Shown: positions 5,405 through 34,538 of the stretch, one piece after another | Layout of the letters: every line of letters begins with the position of its first letter | How positions within the stretch are numbered: position 1 is the first letter of the stretch | Position numbers and translations under genes: made by a program | Notes under the pieces: model-generated | Database searches by the model: none | What the model was told of the DNA's origin: nothing | What the model saw: the letters and a program-made list of their open reading frames with translations, nothing else | NCBI GenBank assembly: GCA_963726245.1 | Contig: CAVSBT010000038.1 | Location: 32,001-96,000 of the forward strand | Length of the DNA: 64,000 nt | Direction of reading: 5' to 3' | From: an uncultured Chloroflexia bacterium | GTDB lineage: Bacteria > Chloroflexota > Dehalococcoidia > DSTF01 > JALHUB01

Positions 5405-7329
5405 GTGGAGATAGAGGCGATCCTGCGACAGGTGAGCAAGCCCGCCCGGTACACGGGCGGCGAGTGGAACGCCGTCGTCAAGGACTGGGACGCCCAGGCG
5501 GTCCGCATGGCCCTGGCCTATCCCGACGTCTACGACATCGGCATGTCCAACCTGGGGCTCGCCATCCTCTACGACATCCTCAATCGCCAGCCCGACGTGG
5601 TGGCGGAGCGCGTCTACGCCCCCTGGCTCGACATGGAGGCGCAGATGCGGGCGGCCGGCATCCCGCTCTTCAGCCTGGAGACCCGCCACCCCCTGGCCCA
5701 GTTCGACGTCATCGGCTTCTCGCTGAGCTACGAGCTCACCTACACCAACGTCCTCAACATGCTGGACCTGGCCGGCCTCCCGGTCCTGGCCGGCGAACGC
5801 GACGAAAGCTCTCCCCTGGTGGTCGCCGGCGGCAGCGGCGCCCTCAATCCCGAGCCCCTGGCCGACTTCATCGACGTCTTCGCGCTGGGCGACGGCGAGG
5901 AGCTGGCGCTGGAACTGGTGGAGGCGCTCCTAGAGTGGAAGCGCCAGGGCGGAGGCCCGCGCAAGGAGCTGCTGCGGCGACTGGCCGGAATACCTGGCCT
6001 CTACGTGCCCGAGCTTCTATGAGGTCGCCTACAACGACGACGGCACGATTCAGGAGATCCGGCCCAGCGAACCCGACGCGCCGGCCCGGCCGCGCAAGCG
6101 CTTCCTCGCAATCGCTGCCGCCGGCCCCAACGCGGCCCATCGTCCCCTTTCTCCAGATCGTCCACGACCGCGCCGCCATCGAGATACAGCGCGGCTGCAC
6201 CCAGGGCTGCCGCTTCTGCCAGGCGGGCATGATCTACCGTCCGCGGCTGGAGCGCACGCCGGAGGAAGTGGTGGAGACGGCCCGCGAGCTGCTGGCCAGC
6301 ACCGGCTACGACGAGCTGTCCCTGGTCTCGCTGAGCAGCACCGACCACCCGCGCATCCTGCCCATGGTGCAGGCCCTGCGCCGCGAGTTCGGCGACCGCC
6401 TGAAGCTCTCCCTGCCCAGCCTGCGGGTCGACAGCTTCTCGGTGGAGGTCGCGGACGGCGTGTCGGGGCGCGGCAAGCACTCCATCACCTTCGCGCCCGA
6501 GGCCGGCAGCCAGCGACTGCGCAACGCCATCAACAAGCGGGTGACGGAGGAGGACGCGCTGCGGGCCGTCGAGGCCGCCTTCGCCCACGGCTGGACCAGC
6601 GTCAAGATGTACTTCATGTTGGGCCTGCCCACCGAGACCCTGGAGGACGTGCAGGGCATCGTGGAGCTGGCGCGGCAGGTGAAAGAGAGGGGCCGTCGCT
6701 ACCACGGCGGCAGAGCGCGGGTGCGGGTGAGCACCTCGAACTTCATTCCCAAGGCCCACACGCCCTTCCAGTGGGCGTGCCAGATGGCGGCGGAGGAGCT
6801 GCGACCCCGCCACGAGCTGCTGCGGAGCCAGCTCAAGCGCTTCGGCGTCGCCTTCTCGTGGGAGGAGCCGGAGCAGAGCGCGCTGGAGGCGATCCTCTCC
6901 GGCGGCGACCGTCGCCTCGGGCGGGCGATCCACCGCGCCTGGCAACTGGGCGCCAGGTTCGACGCCTGGAGCGAAGGCTATGACTGGTCGCGCTGGCAGC
7001 AGGCGCTGGAGGAGTCAGGCCTGAGCCCTGCCTTCTACGCCTACCGGGAGAGAGGCCTCTTCGAGGTGCTCCCCTGGTCCCACATCGACGTGGGCGTGAC
7101 GGACGCCTACCTGCGCGGCGAGTGGCTGAAGGCGCAGCGCGGGGAGACCACGAGCGACTGCGCCCCTGGGAAGGGGACCTGCAACGTCTGCGGCGTCCAG
7201 AACCTGGGAGCGGAGGCCTGCCTCGCCAGGATCGCCGAGCTCATCGAGATAAGTAGGGGCGCACGGCCGTGCGCCCCTACGTTGGCCTCCCGTGCCGTTG
7301 CCCGCGGGCCAGGCCGCGCCTTAGAATAG
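5405..7329 (+). CDS. TIGR03960-family B12-binding radical SAM protein (frameshifted around 6010-6115)
   Basis: KPARYTGGEWN and YPDVYDIGMSNLG in the N-terminal part. The EIQRGCTQGCRFCQAG CxxxCxxC motif lies in the second frame. Confidence 0.9.
7253..7280. repeat. GTAG-type REP palindrome inside the 3' end of the radical SAM gene
   Basis: Perfect 28-bp palindrome GTAGGGGCGCACGGCCGTGCGCCCCTAC. Confidence 0.85.
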
Positions 7330-10789: not shown

Positions 10790-11386
10790 CTAGTTCGCCA
10801 CTCGGGCGCGATACGCGGCTGCCAGGAGAGGAGCAGGCAGCCAGCCGCCGTACGATTCCATGACCTCCAGCACCCCGTTGACCTCGCTGTCGCGCAGCGG
10901 GGCGTGAATCACGAACTCGGCCGTCGACCGTGCCTCAATCTCGGACTCACTCCAGTACGGAAGGACCACGGCGATAGGCACAGCGGGCGCCTGGGCTCGC
11001 AGGCGGCGGGCCAGCACCAGGGCGCCCCCGCCCCGATCAGCCTCGACGATGAGAAGCTCCGATTCAGAGAGGGCGGCTTCGTCGGCTGAGGAGAGATCGT
11101 AACGGAGGCAGACAACGCGGCAGCCGTGGCGGGCGCATGCCCCTTCGATAAGGAGGCGGCTCTCGGGCCGGACCTCCGCCAGCGCAACCAGAGGCGCCGG
11201 TGGAGTCTCGTGGACCCTTCGCGAATCCGGAGGAACAGCTCGTTTCGTGGAGCGCCTGGGGTGACCTCTAACCGGCCTGGGCGGCGGCTCGTGGTGGCCG
11301 CACTTCAGGCATGCCAGCGCTATGTCGGCGTAATCGGCGTAGAGGTCGCCGCCACACTGAGGGCAAACCTTGTCGCCCCACCTCAT
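10790..11386 (-). CDS. Zn-ribbon plus receiver-like domain protein
   Basis: N-terminal CPQC...CLKC, a low-complexity linker, then a (beta/alpha)5 pattern lacking the canonical phospho-Asp and Lys. AAAGGA RBS. Confidence 0.65.
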   Translation of the reverse strand: MRWGDKVCPQCGGDLYADYADIALACLKCGHHEPPPRPVRGHPRRSTKRAVPPDSRRVHETPPAPLVALAEVRPESRLLIEGACARHGCRVVCLRYDLSSADEAALSESELLIVEADRGGGALVLARRLRAQAPAVPIAVVLPYWSESEIEARSTAEFVIHAPLRDSEVNGVLEVMESYGGWLPAPLLAAAYRARVAN

Positions 11387-11553
11387 CTCGGGATTCCTTT
11401 CCTGGATGGCGCGACTGATGGTTTACAGGGCCCAGTACCAGTTTTCAGTGACGGGCTACCGGCCCGGCGGCCACCCGCGCCGTTGCCGAGCCGGAAATCG
11501 CCGTTGACAACTGAAGTCTAGCACCGGCGTCAAGTCGCATACAACCAGTGTGT

Positions 11554-13584
11554 CTACGACTGGCTTAGCTGGCGCTCCACTATCTCTCTGATCTCCTCCA
11601 CTTTAAAGGGTTTGACCAGGCACGGATTGCTTATCCGCTGGAGGAACTGGCGCGTCGCCACGTTCACAGTGTCACCGGTGATGAATACCATGCGTTCCGC
11701 CTGCTCCCGGTCTATCTCCCGCACCCGGCGGTAGAACTCCTGGCCGCTCATCTCCGGCATCTTAATATCGGTGATGATGAGGTCATACTGGCGGTCAAAC
11801 ATGCGTTGGAGCGCCTCGGCGCCGCTGCCGGCGACATCCACCTGGTGCCCGTCCATGTTGAGCACGTCATGGAGGAGCGTCTGGATGCTGCTCTCGTCGT
11901 CAACCACCAGGATGCTGCGGGCGCCGACCTCGAAGCGCGCCTCCTCCTCCTTCTCTTCGACGGCGGGCTGCTGCTCCGGCCCCTGCACGATAGGCAGGTC
12001 GACGATGAAGGTGGCGCCCTTGCCGGCCCGGCTCTCGGCGCGGATGCGGCCCCCGTGGTCCTCGATGATGCCGTAGGCGATGGTGAGGCCCAAGCCGGTG
12101 CCCTCGCCGACCCTCTTGGTGGTGAAGAACGGATCAAACACGCGGCGGAGGTTCTCCGGAGGCAGGCCGGGGCCGTCGTCGGCGAAGGAGAGGCGGATGT
12201 AGCCCCCTGCTGCGCCGGAATGCACGATGAGGCGGCCCTGGCCGTTAGCCTCCAGCATGGCGTGCTCGGCGTTGGTGATGATATTGAAAAAGACCTGCTG
12301 GATCTGGTCGGGGTCGGCCATCGTGCGCGGCAACTGGGGGTCCAGCTCCAGTTCCAGGGTGATGTTCTTCAGGCGCAGGTCGTAGTTGCGCAGCTCCAGT
12401 ACCCTCTCCAGGAGCGTGTTCAGGTTCACCAGCTCCTTCTCGGCCTTGTGGCGTCGGGCGAACGACAGCAGGTTCTGCACGATCTTGGCCGCCCGCTCTG
12501 CCTCGCCCTGTATGGTCTCCAACTCGTGGCGGGAGCGTTCGTCCATCTCTCGCGTGAGGAGGAGCTGCGCGAATCCCATGATGCCGGTCAGCGGGTTGTT
12601 CAGCTCGTGCGCGACGCCGGAGACCAACTGGCCCACGCTGGCCATCTTCTCCGACTGCATCAGGCGCTCCTGGAGAAGCCGCTCTTCCGTCACCTCGCGC
12701 ATGACAACGACGACGCCGCGCTCGAAGCCGCCCAGGGGAAGCGCCTTCACCGAGAGGTGACGGCGCCGGCCGTCCTCCAGGGCGTAGTCTACCTGGCGGC
12801 GCTGTCCGGAGCTCCACACCTCTTCCACCAGCGAGGCGATCGGCGTCTCCTCCAGGGCAATCTCCTGATCCTCGGGACGGCGGCACAGCGCGGCCAGGAG
12901 GAGGCGGGCCGTCTCGTTCACAAGCGTATTGCCGCTATCCCGCACCAGCACGATGCCGTCGTCCAGGCTTGCGATGAGACCCCGCAGGCCGCCCTCGTCC
13001 GACGGGCGGACCTCCTCGACGCGCTCCAGCGCTGTCGACGCCAGGCTGGCCGCCGAGTAGAGGAGCCGCGTCTCGTCTGGAGCGAAGGCGCTGTCGCGCT
13101 CCGCCAGCACGCGGAGAAGCCCGACCGCCCGCCCCGAGACGATGAGAGGGGCGTCGGCGGCAATGCGTGGGGGCGCCGCTACGGGGGCTGCTCGTTCGCT
13201 ACCCCGCAGTTCCTCGAGCTGGAAGGGCGGACGCTGGCAGTCACGGTGGACGCCGCCGGAGAAGCGCAGGAAGGTGTCCATGAGGCCGGACGCCAGCCCG
13301 GAGGCCATCGCCTTCGGCAGAGGGGCAGCCGCATAGACCGTGGTCAGGTCGCGGCCATCGAGGCAGAGGACAGAGACAGCGACATCGAAGTGCAGATGAG
13401 GCTGGAGGGAGGTAAAGACACGGCGCAACACATCCTCAGGCGCCAGGCTGCGGGTCAGGCCTTGGATCAGGTCGTGAAGAGCGTTGACCTGGCTCCCTTG
13501 CTGTCCCGCCTCCCCTTCTGCCGCGGCCATGCCGGTGCCCGCGCCGTCGCCGCGCATCGCGCCCTCGGCCGCCGGTTGAGTCAT
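11554..13584 (-). CDS. Hybrid sensor histidine kinase (GAF-PAS-HisKA-HATPase-REC)
   Basis: H-box AHELNNP, N-box NAEHA, DDGPG, FDPFFTTK and GTGLGL. The C-terminal receiver has VVDDE, ITD and KP. Confidence 0.95.
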   Translation of the reverse strand: MTQPAAEGAMRGDGAGTGMAAAEGEAGQQGSQVNALHDLIQGLTRSLAPEDVLRRVFTSLQPHLHFDVAVSVLCLDGRDLTTVYAAAPLPKAMASGLASGLMDTFLRFSGGVHRDCQRPPFQLEELRGSERAAPVAAPPRIAADAPLIVSGRAVGLLRVLAERDSAFAPDETRLLYSAASLASTALERVEEVRPSDEGGLRGLIASLDDGIVLVRDSGNTLVNETARLLLAALCRRPEDQEIALEETPIASLVEEVWSSGQRRQVDYALEDGRRRHLSVKALPLGGFERGVVVVMREVTEERLLQERLMQSEKMASVGQLVSGVAHELNNPLTGIMGFAQLLLTREMDERSRHELETIQGEAERAAKIVQNLLSFARRHKAEKELVNLNTLLERVLELRNYDLRLKNITLELELDPQLPRTMADPDQIQQVFFNIITNAEHAMLEANGQGRLIVHSGAAGGYIRLSFADDGPGLPPENLRRVFDPFFTTKRVGEGTGLGLTIAYGIIEDHGGRIRAESRAGKGATFIVDLPIVQGPEQQPAVEEKEEEARFEVGARSILVVDDESSIQTLLHDVLNMDGHQVDVAGSGAEALQRMFDRQYDLIITDIKMPEMSGQEFYRRVREIDREQAERMVFITGDTVNVATRQFLQRISNPCLVKPFKVEEIREIVERQLSQS

Positions 13585-13610
13585 GGCAGGGCTCCTCAGC
13601 CACCTACGCA

Positions 13611-13638
13611 ATTATGCACCAACACATTTGTTTGTCAA
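13611..13638 (-). promoter_or_regulatory. Sigma70-type promoter of the hybrid kinase
   Basis: TTGACA-N16-CATAAT on the minus strand. Confidence 0.55.
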
Positions 13639-13877
13639 GGCAGGCGTTTGGGGGACCAAGACATCCTGTGCGCTCGGTGCGGGACGCTCGATCCATTAGA
13701 GTGGAGGCCGTGGTGGCCGTGATGAGGGGGCTATCCCCCCGAAAATGGGGCTTGCAGCGGGCTCATGCTAGGGGGATTCACCGATAGGTCTGTGGAGGTC
13801 AAAAGGCCGATACTGAGCAAGACCACTCAGCCTGTGGCGGGCAAGACCACCCTCGGATTCGGATATCGAGGTGAAAC

Positions 13878-14666
13878 GTGTCCTCCTCCGAGCCTAGGGA
13901 GTCGGTTACCGGTCTGCGTCTCATCGTTCCACTGCCTTCAGAAGAGCGACACCTGGCCCAGGTCGTCCACGACTACATGCCTTTGGTGCGTCACGCCGTA
14001 AACCGTGTTGCGGTAGGCTCTTGCGGCGCCAGCATCCTCCAGTACGAAGACATGGTAAGTTGCGGTATTCAGGGGCTCATCGAAGCCTACCACTCGTTCG
14101 ACCCGAACAAGGGCGCCAAGTTCTCCACCTACGCCCTGCCTCGCATTCGAGGGGCCATCCTCGATGCGCTGCGCGCCGCCCATCCGCTGCCCCGCTCACT
14201 GCAGAAGTTCTCCTCGGATGCGGAGAAAGCCACCTCCGCCCTCCACGCGCGCTTGCGACGCGCCCCGAGCCACGAGGAGATAGCTCAGGAGATGGGTCTG
14301 ACCCAGAAGGACTATCTTACCTCTCTCAGTTCTGCCAGCGTACGCACCGTCTCACTGGAGAACCTGGCCGACACGGCCGTCGATGGCAACACAGAGAAGC
14401 TGTGGGAGATGGCCGATGACGACCCCACCGTGGACCCGGACGCGATGGTGGAGAAGACAGTCGTGAAGAGCAAGCTCCGGGAGGCCATGGAGGCGCTCCC
14501 CGATCGCGAGCGGAAGATCGTTCGCCTGTACTACCTGGAGTCCAAGTCTCTGAAGAGCATCGGCCAGAGTCTGGGCATCTCGGAGTCGAGGGCCTCGCAG
14601 CTCCGGCACCGGGCCATCCGGCGCCTGCGGACGGCCCTGATGAGGGAGCTGGAGGACGCCGCTTGA
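13878..14666 (+). CDS. FliA/WhiG-family (sigma-28) RNA polymerase sigma factor
   Basis: Region 2 EDMVSCGIQGLIEA...FSTYALPRIRGAILDALR and region 4 LYY...SLKSIGQSLGISESRASQLR. Confidence 0.93.
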   Translation: MSSSEPRESVTGLRLIVPLPSEERHLAQVVHDYMPLVRHAVNRVAVGSCGASILQYEDMVSCGIQGLIEAYHSFDPNKGAKFSTYALPRIRGAILDALRAAHPLPRSLQKFSSDAEKATSALHARLRRAPSHEEIAQEMGLTQKDYLTSLSSASVRTVSLENLADTAVDGNTEKLWEMADDDPTVDPDAMVEKTVVKSKLREAMEALPDRERKIVRLYYLESKSLKSIGQSLGISESRASQLRHRAIRRLRTALMRELEDAA

Positions 14667-14676
14667 GGCGTCATCG

Positions 14677-15783
14677 ATGCTGCGCCTGGGGCTAGTAGCG
14701 AGCGGTCCTTCGGGTGAGGCCTACGCCCGCGCCTTGACTCAGCTTCCCGAGGCAGAGCTGGCATGCGTGGCAGCAGTGCCTCCCGGCCGCAGGCTGGCGG
14801 TCCGAGCCAGCGCGCACGCCAGCCCGGCAGCCCTGACCGCCCTTCCATCATTGCAGGCTGTCGTACTGGCCAGCAGCCTGGTGGAGCCTTACCCTCTCAT
14901 CCGGCGCGCTCTCGTCCATGGCAAGCACGTTCTTGCCGCCGGCCCGTTTACGCTTACGGCCGCCCAGGTTCATCGTCTGTCCGCTCTGGCCAGGCGGCGG
15001 GGGAAGCTCCTCATGTTCGCCGAGGAGCGTATGCTGTCGCCCAGCTTCGCTCTGCTGGCGGACATGACGAAGGGCGCCACCCGGGCCAGCCTCCGCTACC
15101 TGCGGCTCCTGGACGTCCGCCCCCGCCATCGCGAGTCCGCCCGGCGTTTGGGCGCCGTCGCCGCCGAGGCGCTGGCTCTCTGCACACGGCTGGTCGAGCG
15201 GGCGCCCCATTCAGTCAGCGCCGTGGCCACCGGCCCAAGCGGAGGACCCGCGGAGGCGGCGTTCATCACCCTGGTCTATCCCGGAGGTCTGCTGGCCAGC
15301 CTGCAACTGAGCTTGAGTGAGGACTGGGAGGCCCGCCAGACGGTGGCCTCCATGGAGGGTCGCACCCTCATGCTGGACGAGCTCGACTACCGGACGCCTC
15401 TGCGCATCGTATCCACCAGCCACCGGACACGGCGAGAGGCCGCCGGCGCGGAGAGCTCAGATGGCGGGGCTTGGGAGACGGGCTCCCTCGCCCTGGCAGC
15501 CCTGCCGGGCGACCCTACGCTGGAGCAGTGCCGGGGCTTCCTGGAGGCCGTCGCCGGTAGGCGGGAAGGGCCGGTGAATGCGGAGTGGTGGGAACGGGTA
15601 GCGCAGTTATGGGAGGCAGCGGAGAGGTCGATGGCCCTGGCCGGCGCCCCGGCTTTGCTTGAGGCCGCGCCTCAGCGGTCTAGGGCTGACGACAGGACAC
15701 CACAGCTTCACGTCATTCGCGGTCGGGGGCAGACGGCGCCCTCGGCTTCGGCGAAGCCCGCGCTGACGCTAGTTACCGTTTGA
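14677..15783 (+). CDS. Degenerate Gfo/Idh/MocA-fold protein
   Basis: N-terminal Rossmann pattern and GKHVL, but EKP is replaced by AGP and GxGxxG is degenerate. Starts 10 bp after the sigma gene. Confidence 0.75.
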   Translation: MLRLGLVASGPSGEAYARALTQLPEAELACVAAVPPGRRLAVRASAHASPAALTALPSLQAVVLASSLVEPYPLIRRALVHGKHVLAAGPFTLTAAQVHRLSALARRRGKLLMFAEERMLSPSFALLADMTKGATRASLRYLRLLDVRPRHRESARRLGAVAAEALALCTRLVERAPHSVSAVATGPSGGPAEAAFITLVYPGGLLASLQLSLSEDWEARQTVASMEGRTLMLDELDYRTPLRIVSTSHRTRREAAGAESSDGGAWETGSLALAALPGDPTLEQCRGFLEAVAGRREGPVNAEWWERVAQLWEAAERSMALAGAPALLEAAPQRSRADDRTPQLHVIRGRGQTAPSASAKPALTLVTV

Positions 15784-16062
15784 GGGCTTGGGGGAGGGGG
15801 CGCCGCCCGAGCGTCCACCGCCGGGCTTATCGAAGAAGCGGAAGTGCGTTGCCGGCGGGGCATCCTTCCCGCCGCTGTTCGGCGGGTCTTCCTCTCTGCG
15901 GGCGCCGGCGTCACGCAGTAAGAGCTCCTCGCGAAGCACCGTGATCTCCTCGGGGGCCGATATACCTAGCTTCACCCGGTCTCTTTCCACTCGCAGGACG
16001 GTGACCACGATGTTGCCCTGGATGATGATGCCCTGATCAACTTTGCGTGTGAGAATCAGCAT
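15769..16062 (-). CDS. csrA: Carbon storage regulator CsrA with a Pro/Gly-rich C-terminal extension
   Basis: MLILTRK...VKLGISAP...VLREEL signature. Confidence 0.93.
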   Translation of the reverse strand: MLILTRKVDQGIIIQGNIVVTVLRVERDRVKLGISAPEEITVLREELLLRDAGARREEDPPNSGGKDAPPATHFRFFDKPGGGRSGGAPSPKPSNGN

Positions 16063-16117
16063 ATTCCCTGCTCGCGGGCTATTCGATGTTAGCTGGCCTA
16101 TACCGGGCCATGGATAA

Positions 16118-16144
16118 TTATCGGCATTGGACAGCCGTAATTAG
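16118..16144 (-). promoter_or_regulatory. Sigma-28-type promoter upstream of csrA
   Basis: CTAA-N15-GCCGATAA on the minus strand, with a perfect -10 match, 55 bp upstream of the csrA start. Confidence 0.7.
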
Positions 16145-16326
16145 AGGGCTAGATGCCTCCTTCGTGTGAGCTCAGGAAAAACGCAGGAAGTTCGCCGCGC
16201 CGCCACGAAAATTCCTCCTTCTTGTTGGCCCGCTCCGCTTGACTCCGGCGCCGGAAATGTGAAGAATATTGCCGGACGCCTGAGGCCGGACAATAGCTGC
16301 GAGAAAGGAGTAACAAGAAAGATATA

Positions 16327-16346
16327 ACCAGTTAAACGTTACTGGT
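16327..16346. promoter_or_regulatory. Palindromic operator candidate
   Basis: ACCAGT-N8-ACTGGT in an AT-rich spacer just upstream of the wHTH regulator. Confidence 0.45.
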
Positions 16347-16392
16347 ATTCTACTTCCTTTGGTGTCATTGTCAAGCCGGGTGGAGGGGGAAA

Positions 16393-16713
16393 ATGGCTCA
16401 TTGGGATTTCCTTACCAATCACGCCCTCGTACTCATCCACGTCATCGACCACCCACGCTCAACCCTACGCGACATCGCTAGCGCCGTCGGCATAACGGAG
16501 AGAGCCACCCTCTCAATCCTTCGCGCCCTGGAAGAGGATGGTATCATCTCGCGCCAGAAGGAGGGACGGCGCAACCGCTACTGGGTGAACATCGGAGCCC
16601 TGCTGCAACACCGCCGGCAAGGCCCCTACAGCGTGGAGGAGATCGCTAACGCCCTTCTGCGGCTCGCTCAGAGGGTCGCCGAAAGCGTAGGTGCTCGGAC
16701 GGGCGAGGACTGA
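16393..16713 (+). CDS. Winged-helix (MarR-like) transcriptional regulator
   Basis: WDFLTNHALVL...TLRDIASAVGITER...GRRNRY. Confidence 0.88.
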   Translation: MAHWDFLTNHALVLIHVIDHPRSTLRDIASAVGITERATLSILRALEEDGIISRQKEGRRNRYWVNIGALLQHRRQGPYSVEEIANALLRLAQRVAESVGARTGED

Positions 16714-16728
16714 AAGGTCTGTTGGGGC

Positions 16729-17097
16729 TCAGGCGCTCTTGGCGCTGCCGAGGATGCTTTCCACTGTCGCTCGCAATGCGGCGGGACTGAACGGCTTCTG
16801 AACGATGCCGTCGGCTCCGACGCGCCGGGCATCCGACTCCTGCGCCAGCGCCGTCAGAAGAAGGATGGGCATGCTGGCCATCGACGCCTCTGCCTTCAGC
16901 CTCTGGCAAACGGCGAAGCCGTTCAAACGTGGCATCGCCACGTCCAACAGCACCAGATCAGGCTGATGCTGGCGGGCCATCTCTATGGCCTCGGGCCCAT
17001 CGGCTGCCTCCAGGGTGCGTATGCCCGGGCCATCCAGGATGGCATTCACCAGGGTCCGGATGGCGGGCTCGTCATCTGCGACCAGGACCGTTTTCAT
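16729..17097 (-). CDS. Single-domain response regulator (CheY-like)
   Basis: VADDE, LLDVAMP, LTA and KPFS. ATGA overlap with the upstream kinase. Confidence 0.92.
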   Translation of the reverse strand: MKTVLVADDEPAIRTLVNAILDGPGIRTLEAADGPEAIEMARQHQPDLVLLDVAMPRLNGFAVCQRLKAEASMASMPILLLTALAQESDARRVGADGIVQKPFSPAALRATVESILGSAKSA

Positions 17098-18509
17098 GCT
17101 ATCGCTCCTGAGGTGAGAGCAGCTCCCGAGGTGGAGCAGGAGGGAGGCTCCAGGGGCAGACAGAAGCCGAAGGTGCTTCCCTTCCCCGGACAGCTCTCCA
17201 CCCACATCAGCCCGCCGTGCCACTCCACCAGCCGGCGCGCGATGGTCAGGCCCAGGCCGGCGCCGCTTGACTTGCCGGACGGGCCGGCGGCGCCTTCTCC
17301 GTCCGGCTGGGCGGCTCGATAGAAGGGCTGGAAGATCCTCGCCTGGTCCTCCTGAGAGATGCCCACCCCCCGGTCTCGGACGGCGATGCTCGCCCCGGCC
17401 GGGCAGGGAGCACCCTCTGGCCCCGGCCGGCCGAGATGCAGCGTGGAGGGCCGGGCCAGACAACCGGGCGCCACCTCGATGCGGATCGGCGCGCCAGGTG
17501 GGGAGTAGTTGACGGCATTGCTCACCAGGTTGGCCAGCACCTGGGTTAGCTTGTACAGGTCTGCTATCGGGCGAGGCACGCCGGCTTGAAAGCGGATGGA
17601 GAAGCGTGAACGCCTGTGCTCATTGCCCCAGAGACTGACGACATACTCCGCTACCAGTCGAAGGTTGACGGGCTCCAGGTTCAGTTTGACGCGGCCCGAC
17701 TCCAGGCGTGTCAGGTCCAGCAGCTCGCCGATGAGGGAGCCCAGACGCACCGATTCCTGGTTGATTAGGCAGATCCAGCTCTTCTGCACGTCCGCGCTCA
17801 CCTCCCGCGAGAGGAGGAGCTCGCTGAAGCCCTGTAGGGCGGTGAGGGGCGTCCTTATTTCGTGGGAGGCGACGGAGACGAACTCCTGGGCTCGGCGCCC
17901 TTGCTCGGCCGCGGCCTCCATCACCCGCAGCTTCTCGAGGGCCATAGAGGTCTGGTCGGCCAGGCCCTGGAGAAGGTCGGTCTGGTCAGGGGAGAAAGGG
18001 AATCCAACCCGCCGGCCGACCACCAGCACGCCCAGGCCCTGGCTCGCCGAGCGGATGGGCGCTGCCAGCAGCGTACCGGCGGTCCGGGCGCCGTTGAAGC
18101 AGGAGGGGAGATCATCCAGGAGGGGATGCGGCGCCTCCACCATAAGGGGAGCGGTCGCCTCGAGGGCGGCGTCGGCGAAGGCGATGGTGGGCGACTCTGC
18201 GGCGTCGAAGACGGCCGTCGAGCGGCCGACGCGCAGGGCGCGGCAGGCAGGCCGCCCGTCGTCCGTGCGGACCAGGAAGAGGGCCGCCAGGTCCACTCTT
18301 ACGACCGCACAGACGGCTGATAGTACAGCTTCATAGAGGCTCTCCGGCGTGGTGGCGGCGAAAACCTGAACCGCGCTGCGGTACATCGCCTGGGCGCGGG
18401 CGGTCAGCCTGACCAGCTCGATGCGCTCTCGCCAGGGCTGGCTGTCAGCGTCCGGCGAAAGCGGCTCGAGGGGCCGGAGTGCGAGAATGGAGGAGGCCTT
18501 CGCACTCAA
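17094..18509 (-). CDS. GAF-domain sensor histidine kinase
   Basis: SHEIRTPLT, NLVSNAVNYS, DRGVG, FQPFYR and GAGLGL. Confidence 0.92.
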   Translation of the reverse strand: MSAKASSILALRPLEPLSPDADSQPWRERIELVRLTARAQAMYRSAVQVFAATTPESLYEAVLSAVCAVVRVDLAALFLVRTDDGRPACRALRVGRSTAVFDAAESPTIAFADAALEATAPLMVEAPHPLLDDLPSCFNGARTAGTLLAAPIRSASQGLGVLVVGRRVGFPFSPDQTDLLQGLADQTSMALEKLRVMEAAAEQGRRAQEFVSVASHEIRTPLTALQGFSELLLSREVSADVQKSWICLINQESVRLGSLIGELLDLTRLESGRVKLNLEPVNLRLVAEYVVSLWGNEHRRSRFSIRFQAGVPRPIADLYKLTQVLANLVSNAVNYSPPGAPIRIEVAPGCLARPSTLHLGRPGPEGAPCPAGASIAVRDRGVGISQEDQARIFQPFYRAAQPDGEGAAGPSGKSSGAGLGLTIARRLVEWHGGLMWVESCPGKGSTFGFCLPLEPPSCSTSGAALTSGAIA

Positions 18510-18567
18510 GTGGATTCACCTTCGGTGGCAGGCCTGACGTCCATGGCCAGGCTGGCAGGTCCGCGTC

Positions 18568-18894
18568 CTACCGCTCACGCCGGTGGGCGCGTTCGCTGAG
18601 ATCGCCCGTCGTGCGGTGGGACTGCATTCCGCTCTGAGCGGAGAGGCGACGGATGACGCCCTGGGCCACGAAGCCCACGCCAAGCTCCACGCAGTCGCGG
18701 TAGGTGGTGAAGATGGAGCGGTCGAGGAGCCACAAGCCCTGTTCGTTGAGGTCTTCATGATGATCGGTTCGGAGTCGGAGGAGGCGGCGCAAGCGTCCCA
18801 GGTACGCGTTCTGCACCGCGGACACGTCATCCTCGTCCCTGAGGTCATCCTGGCAAGCGCTCAGCTCTACAGGATCACGAGCGAACTCGATCAC
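18568..18894 (-). CDS. Small helical hypothetical protein
   Basis: GAGGGA RBS. Lies in the operon between the NarL regulator and the kinase. Confidence 0.65.
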   Translation of the reverse strand: MIEFARDPVELSACQDDLRDEDDVSAVQNAYLGRLRRLLRLRTDHHEDLNEQGLWLLDRSIFTTYRDCVELGVGFVAQGVIRRLSAQSGMQSHRTTGDLSERAHRRER

Positions 18895-18951
18895 GGTTAG
18901 GTCCCTCTTCCCGTCCTGCCTTCCTTGCCGAAAGGCAGTGCTCTGTCTCTC

Positions 18952-19734
18952 TTAGCCGGCCTGGCGCTCTTCGCCCGGCTCCGGCGCGGGCGCTACATCG
19001 ATGCCGACCAGCCCCTTCTGAAGGGCATAGCGAATAAGGTCGGTGCGCGTCTGGGCGTGGAGCTTGCTCATGATGTGGGCCTTGTGAGCCTCCACCGTCT
19101 TGACGCTGATGTAGAGCTCGTGGGCTATGCGCTGGTTGGAGTAGCCCTCGGCGATTAGCTGGAGGACCTCGCGCTCACGGCTGGTGAGCAGGCCATAACC
19201 TGACCTGCCCTCTTCGCTCCTGGCCTGGAGGAGGTACTCGCCGGCTGTGCCTGCATCGGAGATCGACGCGCTAAAGTAGGTGTTTCCCCGGTGGACGGCT
19301 TGGATGCCGAGGATAAGCTCGGCGGCGTCGGACTTCTTGACTATGTACCCGCAGGCGCCGGCGCGGAGGGCAGCCACTATTTGCTCGTCCTCCATGTAGC
19401 CGGTCAGGATGAGCACCTTGGTCTTGGGGAGGCGCCGGCGAATCTGGCGTGTGGCCTCCAGTCCGTTGAGGCCGGGCATCACCATGTCCATCAGGACAAC
19501 ATCGGGGAGCAGCTTCTCGGCTGTTTCCATGGCTTCGCGGCCGTTGCTGGCGTCGCCCACCACCTCGATCTCCTGGTGCACTTCCAGGAGAAGGCGGAGG
19601 GCCTGACGGAGAACGGCGTGGTCGTCGACGATGAGGACGCGGATCTTGCCGCTGGAGCCGCGGCTCCAGCCGCCGGCCTCGCTGGGTCGACGATTACGGT
19701 CCGCCATCTCCTCTGAGGATGCAGGCTCCTTCAT
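18952..19734 (-). CDS. NarL/FixJ-family response regulator (REC + LuxR HTH)
   Basis: IVDDH, LMDMVMP and [18 protein letters not shown]...[23 protein letters not shown] before the ATG at 19734. Confidence 0.95.
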
Positions 19735-19972
19735 AAGGGGCGCTCCTTGCCTTCCGCTCTCAGGGGCAGGGCCCTCAAGCCTAGAAGCCGGTCGCCAACC
19801 CACTGTGGCGACTCTTCGCCTGGAAGTTTCCCCACGCCATTGCTAGCCAGCAGTCCGCCCGGCGTTGCGTGATCCGCTCTTCCCAGCCAAGAGCGGCCCA
19901 AAGCCTACCATAACCTTCCAATTACCGGCAAGGATGTTCGCAACTCCGGGGCCAGGATGCCAGGAATTATCA

Positions 19973-20188
19973 CTACTCCTCCTGAACCTGCCGCTCTAGG
20001 AGATCCAGGGGGTGTCTTTCGCTTGCCGACAGGTCTTGGTGATCCAGGAAGCCGTCCATGCCCTCCAGCCCAGCCGGATACTCCCTTGTAGCGCGGCAGT
20101 TCTTGCAGATGCCATGAATGACACCGCGCTTCGGCCCGCTGAGGAGCCAGTGATGACGGCAACTTACGGCGCTGGTCTGAATCACCAC
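19973..20188 (-). CDS. Small Zn-finger-like protein (CxHHW...CKNC)
   Basis: AAGGAGG RBS before GTG. Sequence CRHHWLL-x-GP...GICKNC. Confidence 0.75.
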   Translation of the reverse strand: MVIQTSAVSCRHHWLLSGPKRGVIHGICKNCRATREYPAGLEGMDGFLDHQDLSASERHPLDLLERQVQEE

Positions 20189-20415
20189 GGAACCTCCTTG
20201 CTCCGGACCTGTCGGCACCTATCTCGGCTGCCACCGTGACAGGCGGGTGCATTCTAGTGCCGTTGGAGAACCCTGTTGTATTGGGGAAAACCCTTATGCG
20301 GGGCTGGGGATACCCCTAATTCGCAAGGCAGATAGGGCCATCTTGCTTAGGGAGAATCACGGCTTGTGGGGGTATAGCCCGCATGCTCTCTCTGAAGGGC
20401 GATGGAAGGTGGACC

Positions 20416-20802
20416 CTAGCCAGATGGCCGCAGGCTTTGCTCTGCCGCCGCTCGCTGCAGACAGAAACGCGTGTAGGAGTCGTAGGCGTTGCTGACAGCG
20501 GTCATGATGGCCCGCTGAGGCGGCCCCACGTAGCGCCTTTGGAGGGCGTCCAAGAGGACCCCCACGCTGGCATCGAGGTCGCCGTTCATCAGGATGTCGC
20601 GTACCAGGACCTCGGCACGGGGCAGGACGCCGCGTGTAGCGACCTCCACCGCCTGGTGGCGGCGCACGTCGACCTCGATCTCCACGGACACAACGGAGGG
20701 GGCGCCCACAGGCGCCAAGCTTTGGGGAAGGCGGGCATGGCCTACGAATATTACCGTGCCCTCTTCTTTGTCCTGTAATCCGTCGCCGCCATGTTGCCTC
20801 AT
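20416..20802 (-). CDS. DUF3870-like protein
   Basis: IFVGHARLPQ...RRYVGPPQRAIMTAV resembles DUF3870. GGGAGG RBS. Confidence 0.7.
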   Translation of the reverse strand: MRQHGGDGLQDKEEGTVIFVGHARLPQSLAPVGAPSVVSVEIEVDVRRHQAVEVATRGVLPRAEVLVRDILMNGDLDASVGVLLDALQRRYVGPPQRAIMTAVSNAYDSYTRFCLQRAAAEQSLRPSG

Positions 20803-21029
20803 GTCTGACCTCCCTGTACTGCTGCGGGCGGAATGCGTCAGGCGGGGGAAGAGCCTCAGCCAGAGCCAAACGACACCGGCCGCCCACGCTGCCCGCGGCG
20901 GCTACTGGCATGGTAGCCACGACTGTTACGCTTTCTCAAGACAAGATCGTGAAAGATTCCGTGAAAGGTAAGATTACGTGAAAGGTGAGTAGCGAACGCT
21001 ATTCACGGGGTGGGGTGGGGTGGGGCGGG

Positions 21030-21070
21030 CCTTGTTGCTTCCTGCCTGTTGCATGTTCCAAGCAACAAGG
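21030..21070. terminator. Hairpin downstream of the Zn-ribbon gene
   Basis: ccttgttgctt...aagcaacaagg inverted repeat. Confidence 0.45.
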
Positions 21071-21136
21071 AACAGGCTAACAAACGCCTACCAGCGCCAT
21101 ATGGGCTGGTCCTGCGTCAGGCCGTTGAGTCGATTC

Positions 21137-21343
21137 CTACAGGCGGAGCTTGCCGTGTGAAGGCTGGCGCCTGCGCTGACGGGTGTGGCCGTCTTCCTGG
21201 TCAAGGAGTTCGATGGCCGGGGGCGATACTGCCTCATGTACGTAGCCACAGCAAAGACACGTGCTGTAGACGCCGTACCAGTCTCTCTCCATGATCATGG
21301 ACCCCCGACAGCGGGGGCAGTTACGTGGCAGGGTGCCCTGCAT
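21137..21343 (-). CDS. Small Zn-ribbon protein with basic C-tail (68 aa)
   Basis: CPRC...CLCCG, AGGAGG RBS before the ATG at 21343, and a RQRRRQPSHGKLRL tail. Confidence 0.8.
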   Translation of the reverse strand: MQGTLPRNCPRCRGSMIMERDWYGVYSTCLCCGYVHEAVSPPAIELLDQEDGHTRQRRRQPSHGKLRL

Positions 21344-21404
21344 GTTTGACCTCCTGTTAAGGCGCAGAAACCCCCCGTCCAGATACATGCTGGCCAGATG
21401 CCTG

Positions 21405-21520
21405 TTCGCTGCCTCCGGGATTGACTGAGGGGTTCGGGCAGAAACCTCGCCCTACTCAATCGGGAGATTCACCCTAGCCGGGTGGTTCCCCGTCCCCAAC
21501 AGGGTTCCGGCAGAGCAGCT
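21405..21520 (-). ncRNA. c-di-AMP riboswitch (ydaO/yuaA class)
   Basis: Minus strand reads GCCGGAACCC...GGGGACGGGGAACCA...GGGTGAATC...GTAGGGC...GCCCGAACCCCTCAGTCAATCCCGGAGGC, matching the ordered conserved blocks of the ydaO/yuaA aptamer with P1 complementarity. Confidence 0.85.
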
Positions 21521-21582
21521 CTGGCCCCCCTCCCATCCGCCAAAACGCCTGTGCCAGCGCTGTCCTTTGTGATTTCGCCAAC

Positions 21583-21611
21583 AGGTTAGAATACTGCTCG
21601 GAGCTTGTCAA
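21583..21611 (-). promoter_or_regulatory. Sigma70-type promoter for the riboswitch leader
   Basis: TTGACA-N17-TAACCT on the minus strand. Confidence 0.65.
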
Positions 21612-34519: not shown

Positions 34520-34538
34520 GCCTGGCTCCGCCCGTGCC

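What the first reader, a model, noticed from the sequence alone, without database searches (positions are those of the whole stretch)
10790..21611. Candidate undescribed regulatory circuit: sigma-28 + CsrA + c-di-AMP riboswitch + phosphorelay + Zn microproteins, with no flagellar genes
Seen: about 11 kb made almost entirely of regulators, namely a FliA/WhiG sigma, a pseudo-oxidoreductase, csrA with a sigma-28-like promoter, a wHTH regulator, two soluble GAF kinases, CheY-like and NarL-like regulators, three Zn-binding small proteins, DUF3870 and a ydaO riboswitch. No flagellin, flgM, fliW, che or rsiG gene is recognisable in the window. Established: sigma-28 and CsrA are normally wired to flagellin through FlgM and FliW, and WhiG drives sporulation through RsiG and c-di-GMP. 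Inference: a lineage-specific lifestyle or developmental switch (motility, dormancy or differentiation) that integrates c-di-AMP, phosphorelay, translational control and proteolysis using non-canonical partners.
Basis: partly seen in the sequence, partly recalled or inferred. Interest (0 to 1): 0.78.

Follow-up and report, generated by a model that had tools for sequence, protein, structure and literature searches.

The report
Orphaned sigma-28/CsrA regulatory island in Dehalococcoidia
A cluster of regulator genes built around a flagellar-type sigma factor and the RNA-binding protein CsrA is real and conserved in many uncultured Dehalococcoidia, with no flagellar genes nearby, so it looks like old flagellar control wiring kept for another, still unknown, purpose.

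Summary
Every listed component is at 10790-21611, and no ORF scanned in the 64 kb window matched a flagellar Pfam family.

The cluster is not chance. In Dehalococcoidia loci with enough flank, the pseudo-oxidoreductase follows the sigma in 45 of 49, csrA in 40 of 43 and the NarL regulator in 31 of 40.

csrA carries a conserved sigma-28-type promoter (CCCCTnnA, spacer, GCCGATAA/C) in 43 of 46 loci.

The c-di-AMP riboswitch sits directly before a 68-aa zinc-ribbon protein ("ZnR68") in 7 of 7 relatives scanned.

The oxidoreductase-like protein keeps the Gfo/Idh/MocA fold. It lacks the catalytic Glu-Lys in 45 of 45 sequences.

The ZnR68 C-terminal peptide recurs on CsrA tails in the sister clade that lacks ZnR68. 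This is a single evolutionary split.

Not shown:
- That these genomes lack flagella. Only indirect literature support exists (order DSTF01; PMC10284905).
- Any anti-sigma factor.
- Any role for proteolysis.
- The biological output.

Verdict: a new variant of the known sigma-28/CsrA module, with non-canonical neighbours.

The parts
10790..11386 (-). 198-aa protein ('ZnR198'). It has an N-terminal CxxC...CxxC zinc ribbon and an uncharacterised C-terminal domain. It lies downstream of the hybrid kinase.
   Evidence: Weak Pfam zinc-ribbon matches, below cutoff. The ribbon aligns with that of ZnR68: BLASTP E 0.001, 11 of 31 identical. Found in only 2 of 47 loci, L001 and L002.
11554..13611 (-). Soluble hybrid histidine kinase (GAF, PAS, HisKA, HATPase_c, REC), divergent from the sigma gene.
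   Evidence: Pfam domains. No hydrophobic segment: maximum KD19 is 1.29. Present upstream of the sigma in 36 of 47 loci. A sigma-70-like promoter, TTGACA-16-CATAAT, lies at 13638-13611(-).
13781..13814 (+). Promoter-like motif upstream of the sigma gene (CCGATAGG, 18 nt, GCCGATACT). Relatives carry CnCATAGG or TATGAC, about 17 nt, then GATACT.
   Evidence: Sequence context. Read by eye from the sigma upstream regions of 53 loci, not scored. It differs from the csrA promoter in the -35 region.
13878..14666 (+). Sigma-28 family (FliA/WhiG) sigma factor, 262 aa.
   Evidence: TIGR02479 scores 199.9 against 189.6. The WhiG equivalog scores 199 against 343. The FliA subfamily model scores 177.7 against 201. 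Pfam finds regions 2, 3 and 4. Best solved relatives are 6pfj/6pfv at 148 and 146 bits, ahead of E. coli FliA 6pmi at 118. Identity to the 51 relatives in the alignment is 59-94%.
14677..15783 (+). Gfo/Idh/MocA-fold pseudo-oxidoreductase, 368 aa. It starts 10 nt after the sigma stop codon. Its C-terminal tail is conserved: P-h-R-V-I-x-G-G-G, 7-10 residues, then R-P-x-L-T-L/V-V.
   Evidence: AlphaFold2 gives mean pLDDT 84.4 and pTM 0.82. Foldseek top hits are all Gfo/Idh/MocA enzymes, E 2e-19, TM 0.64-0.71. At the columns aligned to the enzymes' EKP motif, 0 of 45 sequences have Glu and 0 of 45 have Lys. The protein follows the sigma in 45 of 49 loci. The two ORFs overlap or abut in several loci, for example L011 9713-10717 and 10714-11775.
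15769..16062 (-). csrA, 97 aa: a conserved 50-residue core plus a variable tail. It is convergent with the pseudo-oxidoreductase gene and overlaps its 3' end by 15 nt.
   Evidence: PF02599 scores 68.9 against 27. TIGR00202 scores 65.7 against 70.1, below cutoff. It aligns to E. coli-type CsrA structures over residues 1-54. Present in 40 of 43 loci.
16118..16148 (-). Sigma-28-type promoter of csrA: -10 GCCGATAA (16125-16118) and a -35-like CCCTCTAA (16148-16141).
   Evidence: A CCGATA element lies within 260 nt upstream of csrA in 43 of 46 loci. Of 141 GCCGATA[ACT] occurrences in 920,707 bp of relatives, 42 are upstream of csrA. The window site scores 28.7 bits on the matrix built from those sites, and the next best site in the 64 kb scores 10.8.
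16327..16374 (-). Sigma-70-like promoter TTGACA-16-TAGAAT (16374-16347) and a perfect 20-nt palindrome (16327-16346), between the wHTH gene and csrA.
   Evidence: Consensus scan. Function not tested.
16393..16713 (+). Winged-helix (MarR/ArsR-like) regulator, 106 aa.
   Evidence: Pfam HTH_24 E 3.2e-8. Found in 2 of 43 loci only.
16729..17097 (-). REC-only (CheY-like) response regulator, 122 aa. Its ATG overlaps the kinase stop codon as ATGA.
   Evidence: Response_reg E 4.6e-26. Start codon checked.
17094..18509 (-). Soluble GAF-HisKA-HATPase histidine kinase, 471 aa.
   Evidence: Pfam. Best-hit assignment finds it in 7 loci.
18568..18894 (-). 108-aa helical protein of no known family ('p108'), between the kinase and the NarL-type regulator.
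   Evidence: No Pfam or NCBIfam match. Orthologues in 12 of 40 loci. AlphaFold2 predicts a three-helix core, pLDDT 76.9. No significant structural match in PDB, best E 0.58.
18952..19803 (-). NarL/FixJ-type response regulator (REC + GerE HTH). The true start is probably downstream of the ORF start.
   Evidence: Pfam. Present in 31 of 40 loci at 53-92% identity.
19973..20218 (-). 81-aa Cys/His protein ('Zn81'), directly upstream of the NarL-type gene.
   Evidence: C20, H22, W24, L26, P29, C38, C41 and P48 are invariant across 24 sequences. No Pfam match. No PDB sequence match. The atlas finds only Chloroflexota hypothetical-protein clusters. Present in 27 of 40 loci.
20416..20802 (-). DUF3870 protein, 128 aa.
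   Evidence: PF12986 scores 44.8 against 22. Present in 8 of 39 loci.
21137..21343 (-). 68-aa zinc-ribbon protein ('ZnR68') with an acidic linker and an invariant C-terminus, RQRRRQPSHGK[L/I]RL.
   Evidence: Orthologues are 75-97% identical. Start at 21343, with AGGAGG 7 nt upstream, conserved in 5 aligned sequences. The big protein set holds 140 relatives, none with a functional name. Present in 17 of 39 loci.
21395..21522 (-). c-di-AMP riboswitch aptamer (RF00379), directly upstream of ZnR68.
   Evidence: 53.1 bits against 38, full model 1-134. The same arrangement holds in 7 of 7 relatives scanned, at 90.8-99.3 bits. A core pattern matches in 18 of 18 loci that have ZnR68.

Best explanation
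This is a conserved regulatory island of a large group of uncultured Dehalococcoidia. Two members can be placed in GTDB order DSTF01.

Core. A WhiG-like sigma-28 factor is co-transcribed with a catalytically dead Gfo/Idh/MocA-fold protein. A convergent csrA gene is read from a conserved sigma-28-type promoter. So sigma-28 activity sets CsrA production, and CsrA then controls translation of mRNAs that lie outside the window.

Inputs. A soluble GAF/PAS hybrid kinase sits divergently next to the sigma gene. In two of the three clades, a NarL-type regulator with lineage-specific small proteins (Zn81, p108) follows csrA.

Riboswitch branch. In the window's clade, a c-di-AMP riboswitch gates a highly conserved zinc-ribbon microprotein (ZnR68). 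By analogy with other members of this riboswitch class, ZnR68 would be made when c-di-AMP is low. ZnR68 probably acts on or beside CsrA, because its C-terminal peptide is carried by CsrA itself in the clade that lacks ZnR68.

Origin. The most economical reading is the late-flagellar sigma-28 to CsrA control pair, kept and rewired after loss or uncoupling of the flagellar genes.

Shown: the parts, their synteny, the promoter, the riboswitch-gene pairing and the loss of the catalytic motif.

Inferred: who reads the promoter, all protein contacts, the sign of riboswitch control, the targets and the link to flagellar loss.
For: Synteny. Among 53 Dehalococcoidia loci with an assigned sigma ORF, counting only those with enough flank: pseudo-oxidoreductase 45 of 49, csrA 40 of 43, hybrid kinase 36 of 47, NarL-type regulator 31 of 40, Zn81 27 of 40, ZnR68 17 of 39. 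Sigma identity in these loci falls as low as 56%.

Promoter. CCGATA lies upstream of csrA in 43 of 46 loci, with a shared -35-like CCCCTnnA. Of 141 GCCGATA[ACT] in 920,707 bp, 42 are upstream of csrA. The matrix scan gave 41 hits of 18 bits or more. Of these, 31 were tagged as csrA-upstream. Six more lie upstream of csrA copies that the gene table had missed. One is the homologous site in L053, where no csrA was detected. Three lie elsewhere.

Sigma family. TIGR02479 is above its cutoff. The closest solved relatives are 6pfj/6pfv and FliA.

Pseudoenzyme. The fold is retained. The EKP Glu and Lys are absent in 45 of 45 sequences.

Riboswitch. It lies directly before ZnR68 in 7 of 7 loci scanned. 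It is absent from 6 of 6 scanned loci that lack ZnR68 and lack any other riboswitch-led zinc-ribbon ORF. L030 has two riboswitches, each before another small Cys-rich ORF.

Shared peptide. [ST]HG.L.L occurs 24 times in the six-frame translation of 984,707 bp. Fourteen are ZnR68 C-termini and 8 are CsrA tails, one of them in a csrA missing from the gene table. All follow an Arg-rich run. Two lie elsewhere.

Flagellar genes. No flagellar, FliW or FlgM Pfam family was found in the window. None was found among 124 ORFs of 6 relatives at E up to 1e-5, or among 145 ORFs of 11 more at E up to 1e-15.

Literature (PMC10284905; section 8 read, supplementary file 1 part 4 read, Table S1/S2 rows seen). 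Flagella are inferred ancestral in Dehalococcoidia. The core set is frequent only in orders 1, 2, 3 and 7, and losses are inferred for the ancestors of orders 3-6. DSTF01 is order 6. It contains family WHTK01 (locus L036) and family RBG-16-68-14.
Against: No genome was scanned for flagellar genes. A full flagellar regulon elsewhere is therefore not excluded. The same paper grouped FliA with the structural genes that usually co-occur.

The DSTF01 placement is direct only for L036. For L014 it rests on the family's name. For the window it rests on a midpoint-rooted sigma tree.

On that tree the ZnR68/CsrA-tail complementarity needs only 2 changes. It is one or two events, not repeated independent evidence.

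Gaps of about 120-330 nt separate ZnR68, DUF3870, Zn81 and the NarL-type gene, and a weak terminator-like hairpin follows ZnR68. The riboswitch may therefore control ZnR68 alone.

The sigma gene's own upstream motif is not the csrA type. No sigma-28-type promoter precedes the riboswitch operon. So the two halves are not visibly one regulon.

One whole clade (11 loci with the second CsrA tail type) has only kinase, sigma, pseudo-oxidoreductase and csrA.

The window's riboswitch differs at 9 of 78 aptamer columns that are invariant in four relatives. It may be impaired.
Confidence: 0.55

Rival explanations
1. Ordinary flagellar late-gene regulators. The sigma is the cell's FliA and CsrA controls flagellin. 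The flagellar, fliW and flgM genes simply lie elsewhere in the genome. The neighbours are unrelated regulators held together by inheritance.
For: Sigma-28 driving csrA is the known arrangement in flagellated Bacillus (recalled). Public sources name the homologues FliA. Early-branching Dehalococcoidia do have flagella in three separate clusters (PMC10284905, section 8). No genome was scanned here.
Against: No flagellar, fliW or flgM family was found in 64 kb of the window or in the flanks of 17 relatives. In the listed relatives csrA sits beside the sigma, with no FliW family match nearby. DSTF01 is not among the orders where the paper reports the flagellar core set as frequent. The sigma scores closer to 6pfj/6pfv than to FliA.
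Confidence: 0.3
2. Two or three independent modules that are only neighbours: (a) kinase, sigma, pseudo-oxidoreductase and csrA; (b) Zn81, NarL-type regulator and p108, with or without a kinase and REC protein; (c) riboswitch and ZnR68. There is no shared circuit.
For: One clade keeps module (a) alone. The genes of (b) and (c) are separated by sizeable gaps. There is no csrA-type promoter before (b) or (c), apart from one weak site in L001. In L036 module (b) lies on the other side of the sigma, inverted.
Against: Modules (a) and (b) stay adjacent in 31 of 40 loci across deep divergence. The ZnR68 C-terminal peptide reappears on CsrA in the clade without module (c).
Confidence: 0.35
3. The pseudo-oxidoreductase is the anti-sigma factor, or another stoichiometric partner, of the sigma-28.
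For: Tight operon position, with abutting or overlapping ORFs. Present in 45 of 49 loci. It evolves fast: 21-39% identity to all but the two closest relatives, against 59-71% for the sigma. The catalytic motif is lost but the fold kept. The disordered C-terminal tail is conserved.
Against: No known anti-sigma factor has this fold (recalled, no search made). No direct evidence of contact exists. Adjacency alone is weak evidence.
Confidence: 0.15
4. A chance grouping of regulators in a regulator-rich genome.
For: None beyond the general abundance of two-component genes.
Against: Synteny counts. Promoter conservation. Riboswitch-gene pairing.
Confidence: 0.02

Closest known systems
Bacillus subtilis SigD / CsrA / FliW / Hag late-flagellar module
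   Same: A sigma-28 family factor, with csrA read from a GCCGATA-type promoter. The CsrA has a conserved core and a C-terminal extension.
   Different: No fliW, flagellin or flgM within the window or within about 10 kb in 17 relatives. Here csrA sits beside the sigma gene and a pseudo-oxidoreductase. CsrA tails come in three lineage-specific forms. The Bacillus wiring is recalled, not read here.
Streptomyces WhiG / RsiG / c-di-GMP switch
   Same: A sigma-28 family factor used without flagella. The window sigma's best solved relatives are 6pfj/6pfv, recalled to be WhiG in complex with RsiG. A cyclic dinucleotide is involved in the neighbourhood.
   Different: The WhiG equivalog model is not reached: 199 bits against 343. 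No RsiG-like protein was recognised. The nucleotide is c-di-AMP and acts through an RNA aptamer before a zinc-ribbon gene, not through an anti-sigma protein. No link from it to the sigma is shown.
c-di-AMP (ydaO/kimA) riboswitch regulons
   Same: A full-length RF00379 aptamer in a 5' leader.
   Different: The known targets I recall are potassium and osmolyte transporters and cell-wall enzymes. The listings and abstracts (kdpFABC, a cell-wall peptidase, potassium importers) agree. Here the gene is a 68-aa zinc-ribbon protein of no known family. In L030 two further aptamers precede other small Cys-rich ORFs.
Gfo/Idh/MocA oxidoreductases (e.g. GnnA 7bvj, KanD2 6jw6)
   Same: The two-domain fold: TM 0.64-0.71, profile E 5e-19. 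The glycine-rich loop is partly kept (G in 40 and 37 of 45).
   Different: The EKP Glu and Lys are absent in 45 of 45 sequences. A conserved C-terminal tail has been added. The gene is fixed next to a sigma factor gene.
Sigma-28 retained in non-flagellated bacteria (Chlamydia sigma-28; Legionella oakridgensis FliA/FlgM)
   Same: A flagellar-type sigma kept after flagellar loss.
   Different: Those cases are recalled. The L. oakridgensis paper was seen only as a reference entry in PMC12199754. Neither involves CsrA next to the sigma, a pseudo-oxidoreductase or a riboswitch.

Membership tests
FliA/WhiG (sigma-28) sigma factors | Sigma-70 regions 2, 3 and 4, and a family model above its cutoff | tested here: met
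   Pfam finds r2, r3 and r4. TIGR02479 scores 199.9 against 189.6.
FliA/WhiG (sigma-28) sigma factors | Cognate promoter with a GCCGATAA-type -10 element in front of a regulon gene | tested here: met
   Conserved upstream of csrA in 43 of 46 loci. That this sigma reads it is inferred.
FliA/WhiG (sigma-28) sigma factors | Equivalog-level identity as WhiG or as FliA | tested here: not met
   WhiG NF004935 scores 199 against 343. FliA NF005413 scores 177.7 against 201. NF005809 scores 150.4 against 326.
FliA/WhiG (sigma-28) sigma factors | Partner anti-sigma (FlgM or RsiG) and flagellar or sporulation target genes | tested here: inconclusive
   No such family was found among the ORFs scanned in the window and 17 relatives. 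Whole genomes were not searchable.
CsrA/RsmA | CsrA domain above the Pfam cutoff, with the core aligned to solved CsrA | tested here: met
   PF02599 scores 68.9 against 27. Residues 1-54 align to 1y00 and 2bti.
CsrA/RsmA | NCBIfam equivalog cutoff | tested here: not met
   TIGR00202 scores 65.7 against 70.1. NF002469 scores 59.9 against 73.
CsrA/RsmA | Antagonist: FliW next to csrA, or sponge RNAs | tested here: inconclusive
   No FliW family match near csrA. Rfam gathering scans of the window and 14 loci returned only c-di-AMP riboswitches and one tRNA. Elsewhere in the genome was not testable.
c-di-AMP riboswitch (RF00379) | Covariance model above gathering score over the full model | tested here: met
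   53.1 against 38, positions 1-134. Relatives score 82.6-99.3.
c-di-AMP riboswitch (RF00379) | Binds c-di-AMP and switches expression | not testable with these tools
   The window copy differs at 9 of 78 columns that are invariant in four relatives.
Gfo/Idh/MocA oxidoreductases | Rossmann domain plus alpha/beta C-terminal domain fold | tested here: met
   Foldseek E 2e-19, TM 0.64-0.71. The profile matches 69 PDB sequences of the family.
Gfo/Idh/MocA oxidoreductases | Catalytic and cofactor EKP motif | tested here: not met
   0 of 45 with Glu and 0 of 45 with Lys at the aligned columns. It is therefore filed as a pseudoenzyme of the fold, not as an oxidoreductase.
Two-component systems | HisKA + HATPase_c kinases; REC and REC+GerE regulators | tested here: met
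   Pfam. Which kinase pairs with which regulator was not tested.
DUF3870 | Pfam model above its cutoff | tested here: met
   44.8 against 22.

The most novel reading that the evidence does not exclude
ZnR68 is a new kind of protein partner of CsrA, made only when the c-di-AMP riboswitch allows it. In that case c-di-AMP would control a CsrA regulon in these bacteria, doing the job that FliW and flagellin do in flagellated ones. The pseudo-oxidoreductase would be the matching non-canonical partner of the sigma-28. Together they would form a flagellum-independent sigma-28/CsrA switch.
Probability: 0.15. Interest if true: 0.8.

Novelty: new variant of a known kind. Interest (0 to 1): 0.55.

Why it matters
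Outside the gamma-proteobacteria, sigma-28 and CsrA are textbook flagellar regulators. Their partners (FlgM, FliW, flagellin) explain how they sense assembly.

Here the pair is conserved across dozens of species of an abundant, uncultured soil and subsurface lineage, without those partners nearby. It sits next to a dead enzyme, soluble kinases and family-less zinc proteins.

If the pair works without flagella, it shows how an assembly checkpoint is re-used as a general switch.

It would also add a new gene class, small zinc-ribbon proteins, to the c-di-AMP riboswitch regulon. That regulon has so far been tied to ion, osmolyte and cell-wall genes.

The conserved csrA promoter gives a ready search matrix for the regulon in any complete genome of the group.

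Tried and rejected
- **Complex prediction.** Sigma (alignment A2) with the pseudo-oxidoreductase (A1): score 0.00 in both runs, controls not run, no verdict. It says nothing either way.
- **First matrix scan.** One search returned 0 hits because of an indexing slip in my script. One search is the corrected run.
- **Search for known families.** For Zn81, p108 and ZnR68:
  - Pfam at E up to 1 gave nothing for Zn81 and p108, and only sub-cutoff zinc-ribbon matches for ZnR68.
  - PDB profile searches gave nothing meaningful.
  - The fold search of the p108 model had a best E of 0.58.
  - The atlas gave only Chloroflexota hypothetical-protein clusters.
- **Gemmatimonadaceae loci.** The 8 loci L059-L066 (33-35% identity) were dropped from all counts. 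L060's sigma carries region 1.2 and has no flagellar neighbours, so it is another kind of sigma. It could not serve as a positive control.
- **Other sigma-28 promoters.** Nothing convincing in the window (next best 10.8 bits). A strong site at L046:18655 precedes what reads as a frameshifted aspartyl-tRNA synthetase gene, judged by eye from the translation.
- **Autoregulation of the sigma.** The GCCGATAC at 13806 has no matching -35 element. Relatives carry a different motif.
- **CsrA sites.** GGA motifs near the sigma's ribosome-binding site were looked at by eye. They are not distinguishable from ordinary Shine-Dalgarno sequences.
- **Per-genome flagellar table.** The file in PMC10284905's supplements is stored cut, and no such table was found.
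- **Literature on the module.** Searches for 'CsrA'+'Dehalococcoidia' and for 'sigma-28'/'CsrA'/'Chloroflexi' returned listings with nothing on this module.

Full report
**What is there**

The window has 65.9% G+C. Between 10790 and 21611 it encodes the following genes:

| Coordinates | Product |
|---|---|
| 10790-11386(-) | 198-aa protein with an N-terminal zinc ribbon |
| 11554-13611(-) | Soluble hybrid kinase: GAF, PAS, HisKA, HATPase, REC |
| 13878-14666(+) | Sigma factor |
| 14677-15783(+) | Gfo/Idh/MocA-like protein |
| 15769-16062(-) | csrA |
| 16393-16713(+) | Winged-helix regulator |
| 16729-17097(-) | REC-only protein |
| 17094-18509(-) | GAF kinase |
| 18568-18894(-) | 108-aa helical protein |
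| 18952-19803(-) | NarL-type regulator |
| 19973-20218(-) | 81-aa Cys/His protein (Zn81) |
| 20416-20802(-) | DUF3870 protein |
| 21137-21343(-) | 68-aa zinc-ribbon protein (ZnR68) |
| 21395-21522(-) | c-di-AMP riboswitch |

- The REC-only gene's ATG overlaps the GAF kinase's stop codon as ATGA.
- Neither kinase has a membrane-like segment.
- The sigma passes the FliA/WhiG subfamily model, 199.9 bits against 189.6. It passes no equivalog model.
- Its nearest solved relatives are 6pfj/6pfv at 148 and 146 bits, ahead of E. coli FliA at 118. I recall 6pfj/6pfv to be WhiG bound to RsiG.
- No ORF of the window sent to Pfam matched a flagellar, chemotaxis, FliW or FlgM family.

**Is it more than chance?**

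The sigma has hundreds of close relatives: 738 at E up to 1e-20. The best 120 are 64-99% identical, and the few that carry a taxon name are labelled Dehalococcoidia or Chloroflexi.

One scan of species-representative genomes returned 66 loci. Of these, 58 are labelled Dehalococcoidia, Chloroflexota, Chloroflexi or "Chloroflexia" and are 56-94% identical. The other 8 are Gemmatimonadaceae at 33-35%. I dropped those 8, because L060's sigma carries region 1.2 and is a different kind of sigma.

I ran tblastn with 21 window proteins against the loci. Counting only loci with enough flank gave these figures:

| Gene | Loci with it |
|---|---|
| Gfo-like protein | 45 of 49 |
| csrA | 40 of 43 |
| Hybrid kinase | 36 of 47 |
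| NarL-type regulator | 31 of 40 |
| Zn81 | 27 of 40 |
| ZnR68 | 17 of 39 |
| p108 | 12 of 40 |
| DUF3870 | 8 of 39 |
| wHTH regulator | 2 of 43 |
| 198-aa zinc-ribbon protein | 2 of 47 |

For the REC-only protein and the GAF kinase, the figures are inflated by paralogue cross-hits. Best-hit assignment gives 20 and 7 loci.

The core is therefore kinase, sigma, Gfo-like protein and csrA. A second block (Zn81, the NarL-type regulator and extras) is usually attached. The outermost genes of the finding are specific to the window's closest relatives.

**The promoter**

Upstream of csrA the window reads CCCTCTAA, 15 nt, GCCGATAA. A CCGATA element lies within 260 nt upstream of csrA in 43 of 46 loci, and these sites share a C-rich -35-like element.

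In the 58 loci (920,707 bp), GCCGATA[ACT] occurs 141 times, and 42 of these are upstream of csrA.

A matrix built from these sites gave 41 hits of 18 bits or more:
- 31 were tagged as csrA-upstream.
- 6 more lie before csrA copies that my gene table had missed.
- 1 is the homologous site in L053, where csrA itself was not detected.
- 3 lie elsewhere.

In the window, the csrA site scores 28.7 bits and the runner-up 10.8.

This is the hallmark -10 element of sigma-28 promoters (recalled). That the neighbouring sigma reads it is the natural inference, not a demonstration.

The sigma gene has a different conserved upstream motif, ending in GATACT. I see no sign of autoregulation.

**The dead enzyme**

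- The protein after the sigma folds with confidence: pLDDT 84.4.
- Its model matches only Gfo/Idh/MocA enzymes: E 2e-19, TM 0.64-0.71.
- In profile alignments to solved enzymes, their HxLxEKP aligns with hVLvagP.
- At those columns, none of 45 sequences has Glu or Lys.
- It evolves much faster than the sigma. Mean column identity is 35% against 65%.
- It ends in a conserved, low-confidence tail: h-R-V-I-x-GGG, then RP-x-LT-L/V-V.
- In several loci its ORF abuts or overlaps the sigma ORF.

It is a good candidate for a regulatory partner, but no contact is shown.

**The riboswitch and the zinc microproteins**

All 7 relatives with ZnR68 that I scanned have a full c-di-AMP aptamer directly upstream, at 90.8-99.3 bits. 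A core pattern matches in 18 of 18 ZnR68 loci.

Six scanned loci without ZnR68 have no aptamer. L030 has two, each before a different small Cys-rich ORF.

ZnR68 is more conserved than the sigma, at 75-97% identity. It ends invariably in RQRRRQPSHGK[L/I]RL.

Its 140 relatives in the large protein set carry no functional name. Twelve longer proteins of 149-384 aa carry the module at their C-terminus, behind regions that match no Pfam family in the 9 I scanned.

Zn81 has an invariant C-x-H...C-x-x-C set. Zn81, ZnR68 and p108 match no known family or structure.

**A link between ZnR68 and CsrA**

CsrA tails fall into three types that follow the sigma tree.

In the clade without ZnR68 and without the riboswitch, the tail reads RRR...P-T-H-G-A-L-A-L-K-P. 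This is the same Arg-rich run plus [ST]HG.L.L as the ZnR68 C-terminus.

The pattern occurs 24 times in six-frame translations of 984,707 bp. Of these, 22 are in those two places.

This is the only evidence tying the riboswitch branch to the sigma/CsrA core. On the tree it amounts to one split, with 2 label changes in all, so it is a lead and not a statistic.

**Flagella**

I could not scan any genome.

Indirect evidence comes from 269 ORFs in the flanks of 17 relatives. They gave no flagellar family: 124 ORFs at E up to 1e-5 and 145 at the stricter 1e-15.

PMC10284905 bears on this (section 8 and part 4 of supplementary file 1 read):
- It infers flagella as ancestral in the class.
- It finds the core set frequent only in orders 1, 2, 3 and 7.
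- It infers losses for the ancestors of orders 3-6.
- It also lists FliA among the genes that usually co-occur with structural genes, which cuts the other way.

Its Table S1 places family WHTK01 (locus L036) and family RBG-16-68-14 in order DSTF01, which its note numbers as order 6. I take L014 to be that family's namesake.

L036 and L014 lie on opposite sides of the midpoint root of the sigma tree. The whole set, window included, may therefore belong to that order. This is an inference.

PMC12488501 (passages seen) reports archaella in some Dehalococcoidia. I have no evidence connecting them to this island.

**How it most likely works (confidence 0.55)**

1. Cytoplasmic signals reach the GAF/PAS kinases and the NarL-type regulator.
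2. The sigma-28 directs csrA transcription.
3. CsrA represses or activates unknown mRNAs.
4. In the window's clade, c-di-AMP, through the aptamer, decides whether ZnR68 is made, and ZnR68 modulates CsrA or a shared partner.
5. The module descends from the late-flagellar sigma-28/CsrA pair.

Steps shown: the parts, the synteny, promoter conservation, aptamer-gene pairing, and loss of the catalytic motif. Everything about contacts, direction of control and output is inferred.

**What is known**

My searches found no paper on this module (listings only). The closest systems are the Bacillus SigD/CsrA/FliW/Hag loop and the Streptomyces WhiG/RsiG/c-di-GMP switch. This island shares the sigma family with both and CsrA with the first. 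It has neither set of partners nearby.

I rate it a new variant of a known kind.

Noticed in passing
window 21395-21522 (-): The window's riboswitch is an outlier. It scores 53.1 bits against 82.6-99.3 for nine copies in relatives. It differs at 9 of 78 aptamer columns that are invariant in L001, L002, L003 and L038, while its closest relative L001 differs at 1 of 70 in the same test. The changes include a 1-nt deletion and changes in the CAGCTAAC core. The downstream ZnR68 gene is intact.
   Followed up: partly
window 5222-7329; 50154-52114; 56508-57632; 25763-27096: Several housekeeping genes look split or truncated. Radical SAM is in two frames. Transketolase is in two ORFs. G6PD lacks about the first 100 profile positions. 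A Peripla_BP_6 gene is in two pieces. These could be assembly indels or real pseudogenes.
   Followed up: no
window 16327-16374: A perfect 20-nt palindrome lies next to a near-consensus sigma-70-like promoter (TTGACA-16-TAGAAT) between the wHTH gene and csrA. It is a likely operator and second promoter for csrA. The wHTH gene occurs only in the window, L001 and L002.
   Followed up: no
window 32447-35970: A patch with a HATPase_c_3 protein (690 aa), a Vsr mismatch endonuclease and a C5 cytosine methylase. It looks like a methylase/repair or restriction-like islet.
   Followed up: no
window 38531-41203 (-): A LonC/LonB-like protease of 890 aa. It is the only protease near the finding and lies outside the conserved island.
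   Followed up: no
L030 13924-14052 and 14965-15091 (+): Two c-di-AMP riboswitches (82.6 and 89.4 bits), each followed by a different small Cys-rich ORF (14085-14312 and 15116-15346). Neither ORF is a ZnR68 orthologue.
   Followed up: partly
proteins P0243-P0254 (public protein set): The ZnR68 module, with its C-terminal peptide, forms the C-terminus of 149-384 aa proteins. In the four printed, the N-terminal parts are charged. Three of them (P0249-P0251) also carry NPW..P.E.T-like motifs. None of the 9 scanned has a Pfam match in that region.
   Followed up: partly
L053 about 12014-12350: L053 keeps the csrA promoter (29.3 bits), but no csrA was found by tblastn. Its sigma is identical to that of L052, which has csrA. 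An apparent deletion of about 150 bp was not checked by alignment.
   Followed up: no
clade L033-L050, C-termini of Zn81 and of the Gfo-like protein: In the clade whose CsrA carries the ZnR68-like tail, most Zn81 tails share a GVATAxGGARPSS-type motif (strictest in 5 of the 10 listed). The Gfo-like protein there mostly ends in PPS[VS]A-like residues instead of RP-x-LTLV. Short motifs seem to have moved among the island's proteins.
   Followed up: no
L005 3662-4804 and L007 5112-6197: GGDEF (diguanylate cyclase) genes lie a few kb upstream of the sigma in two relatives.
   Followed up: no
window 19922-19929 (-) and L001 16071 (-): Between Zn81 and the NarL-type gene, L001 has GCCGATAA (18.2 bits on the csrA matrix). 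The window has GCCGGTAA at the homologous place (10.8 bits). This is a possible weak second sigma-28 site, in the closest relatives only.
   Followed up: no
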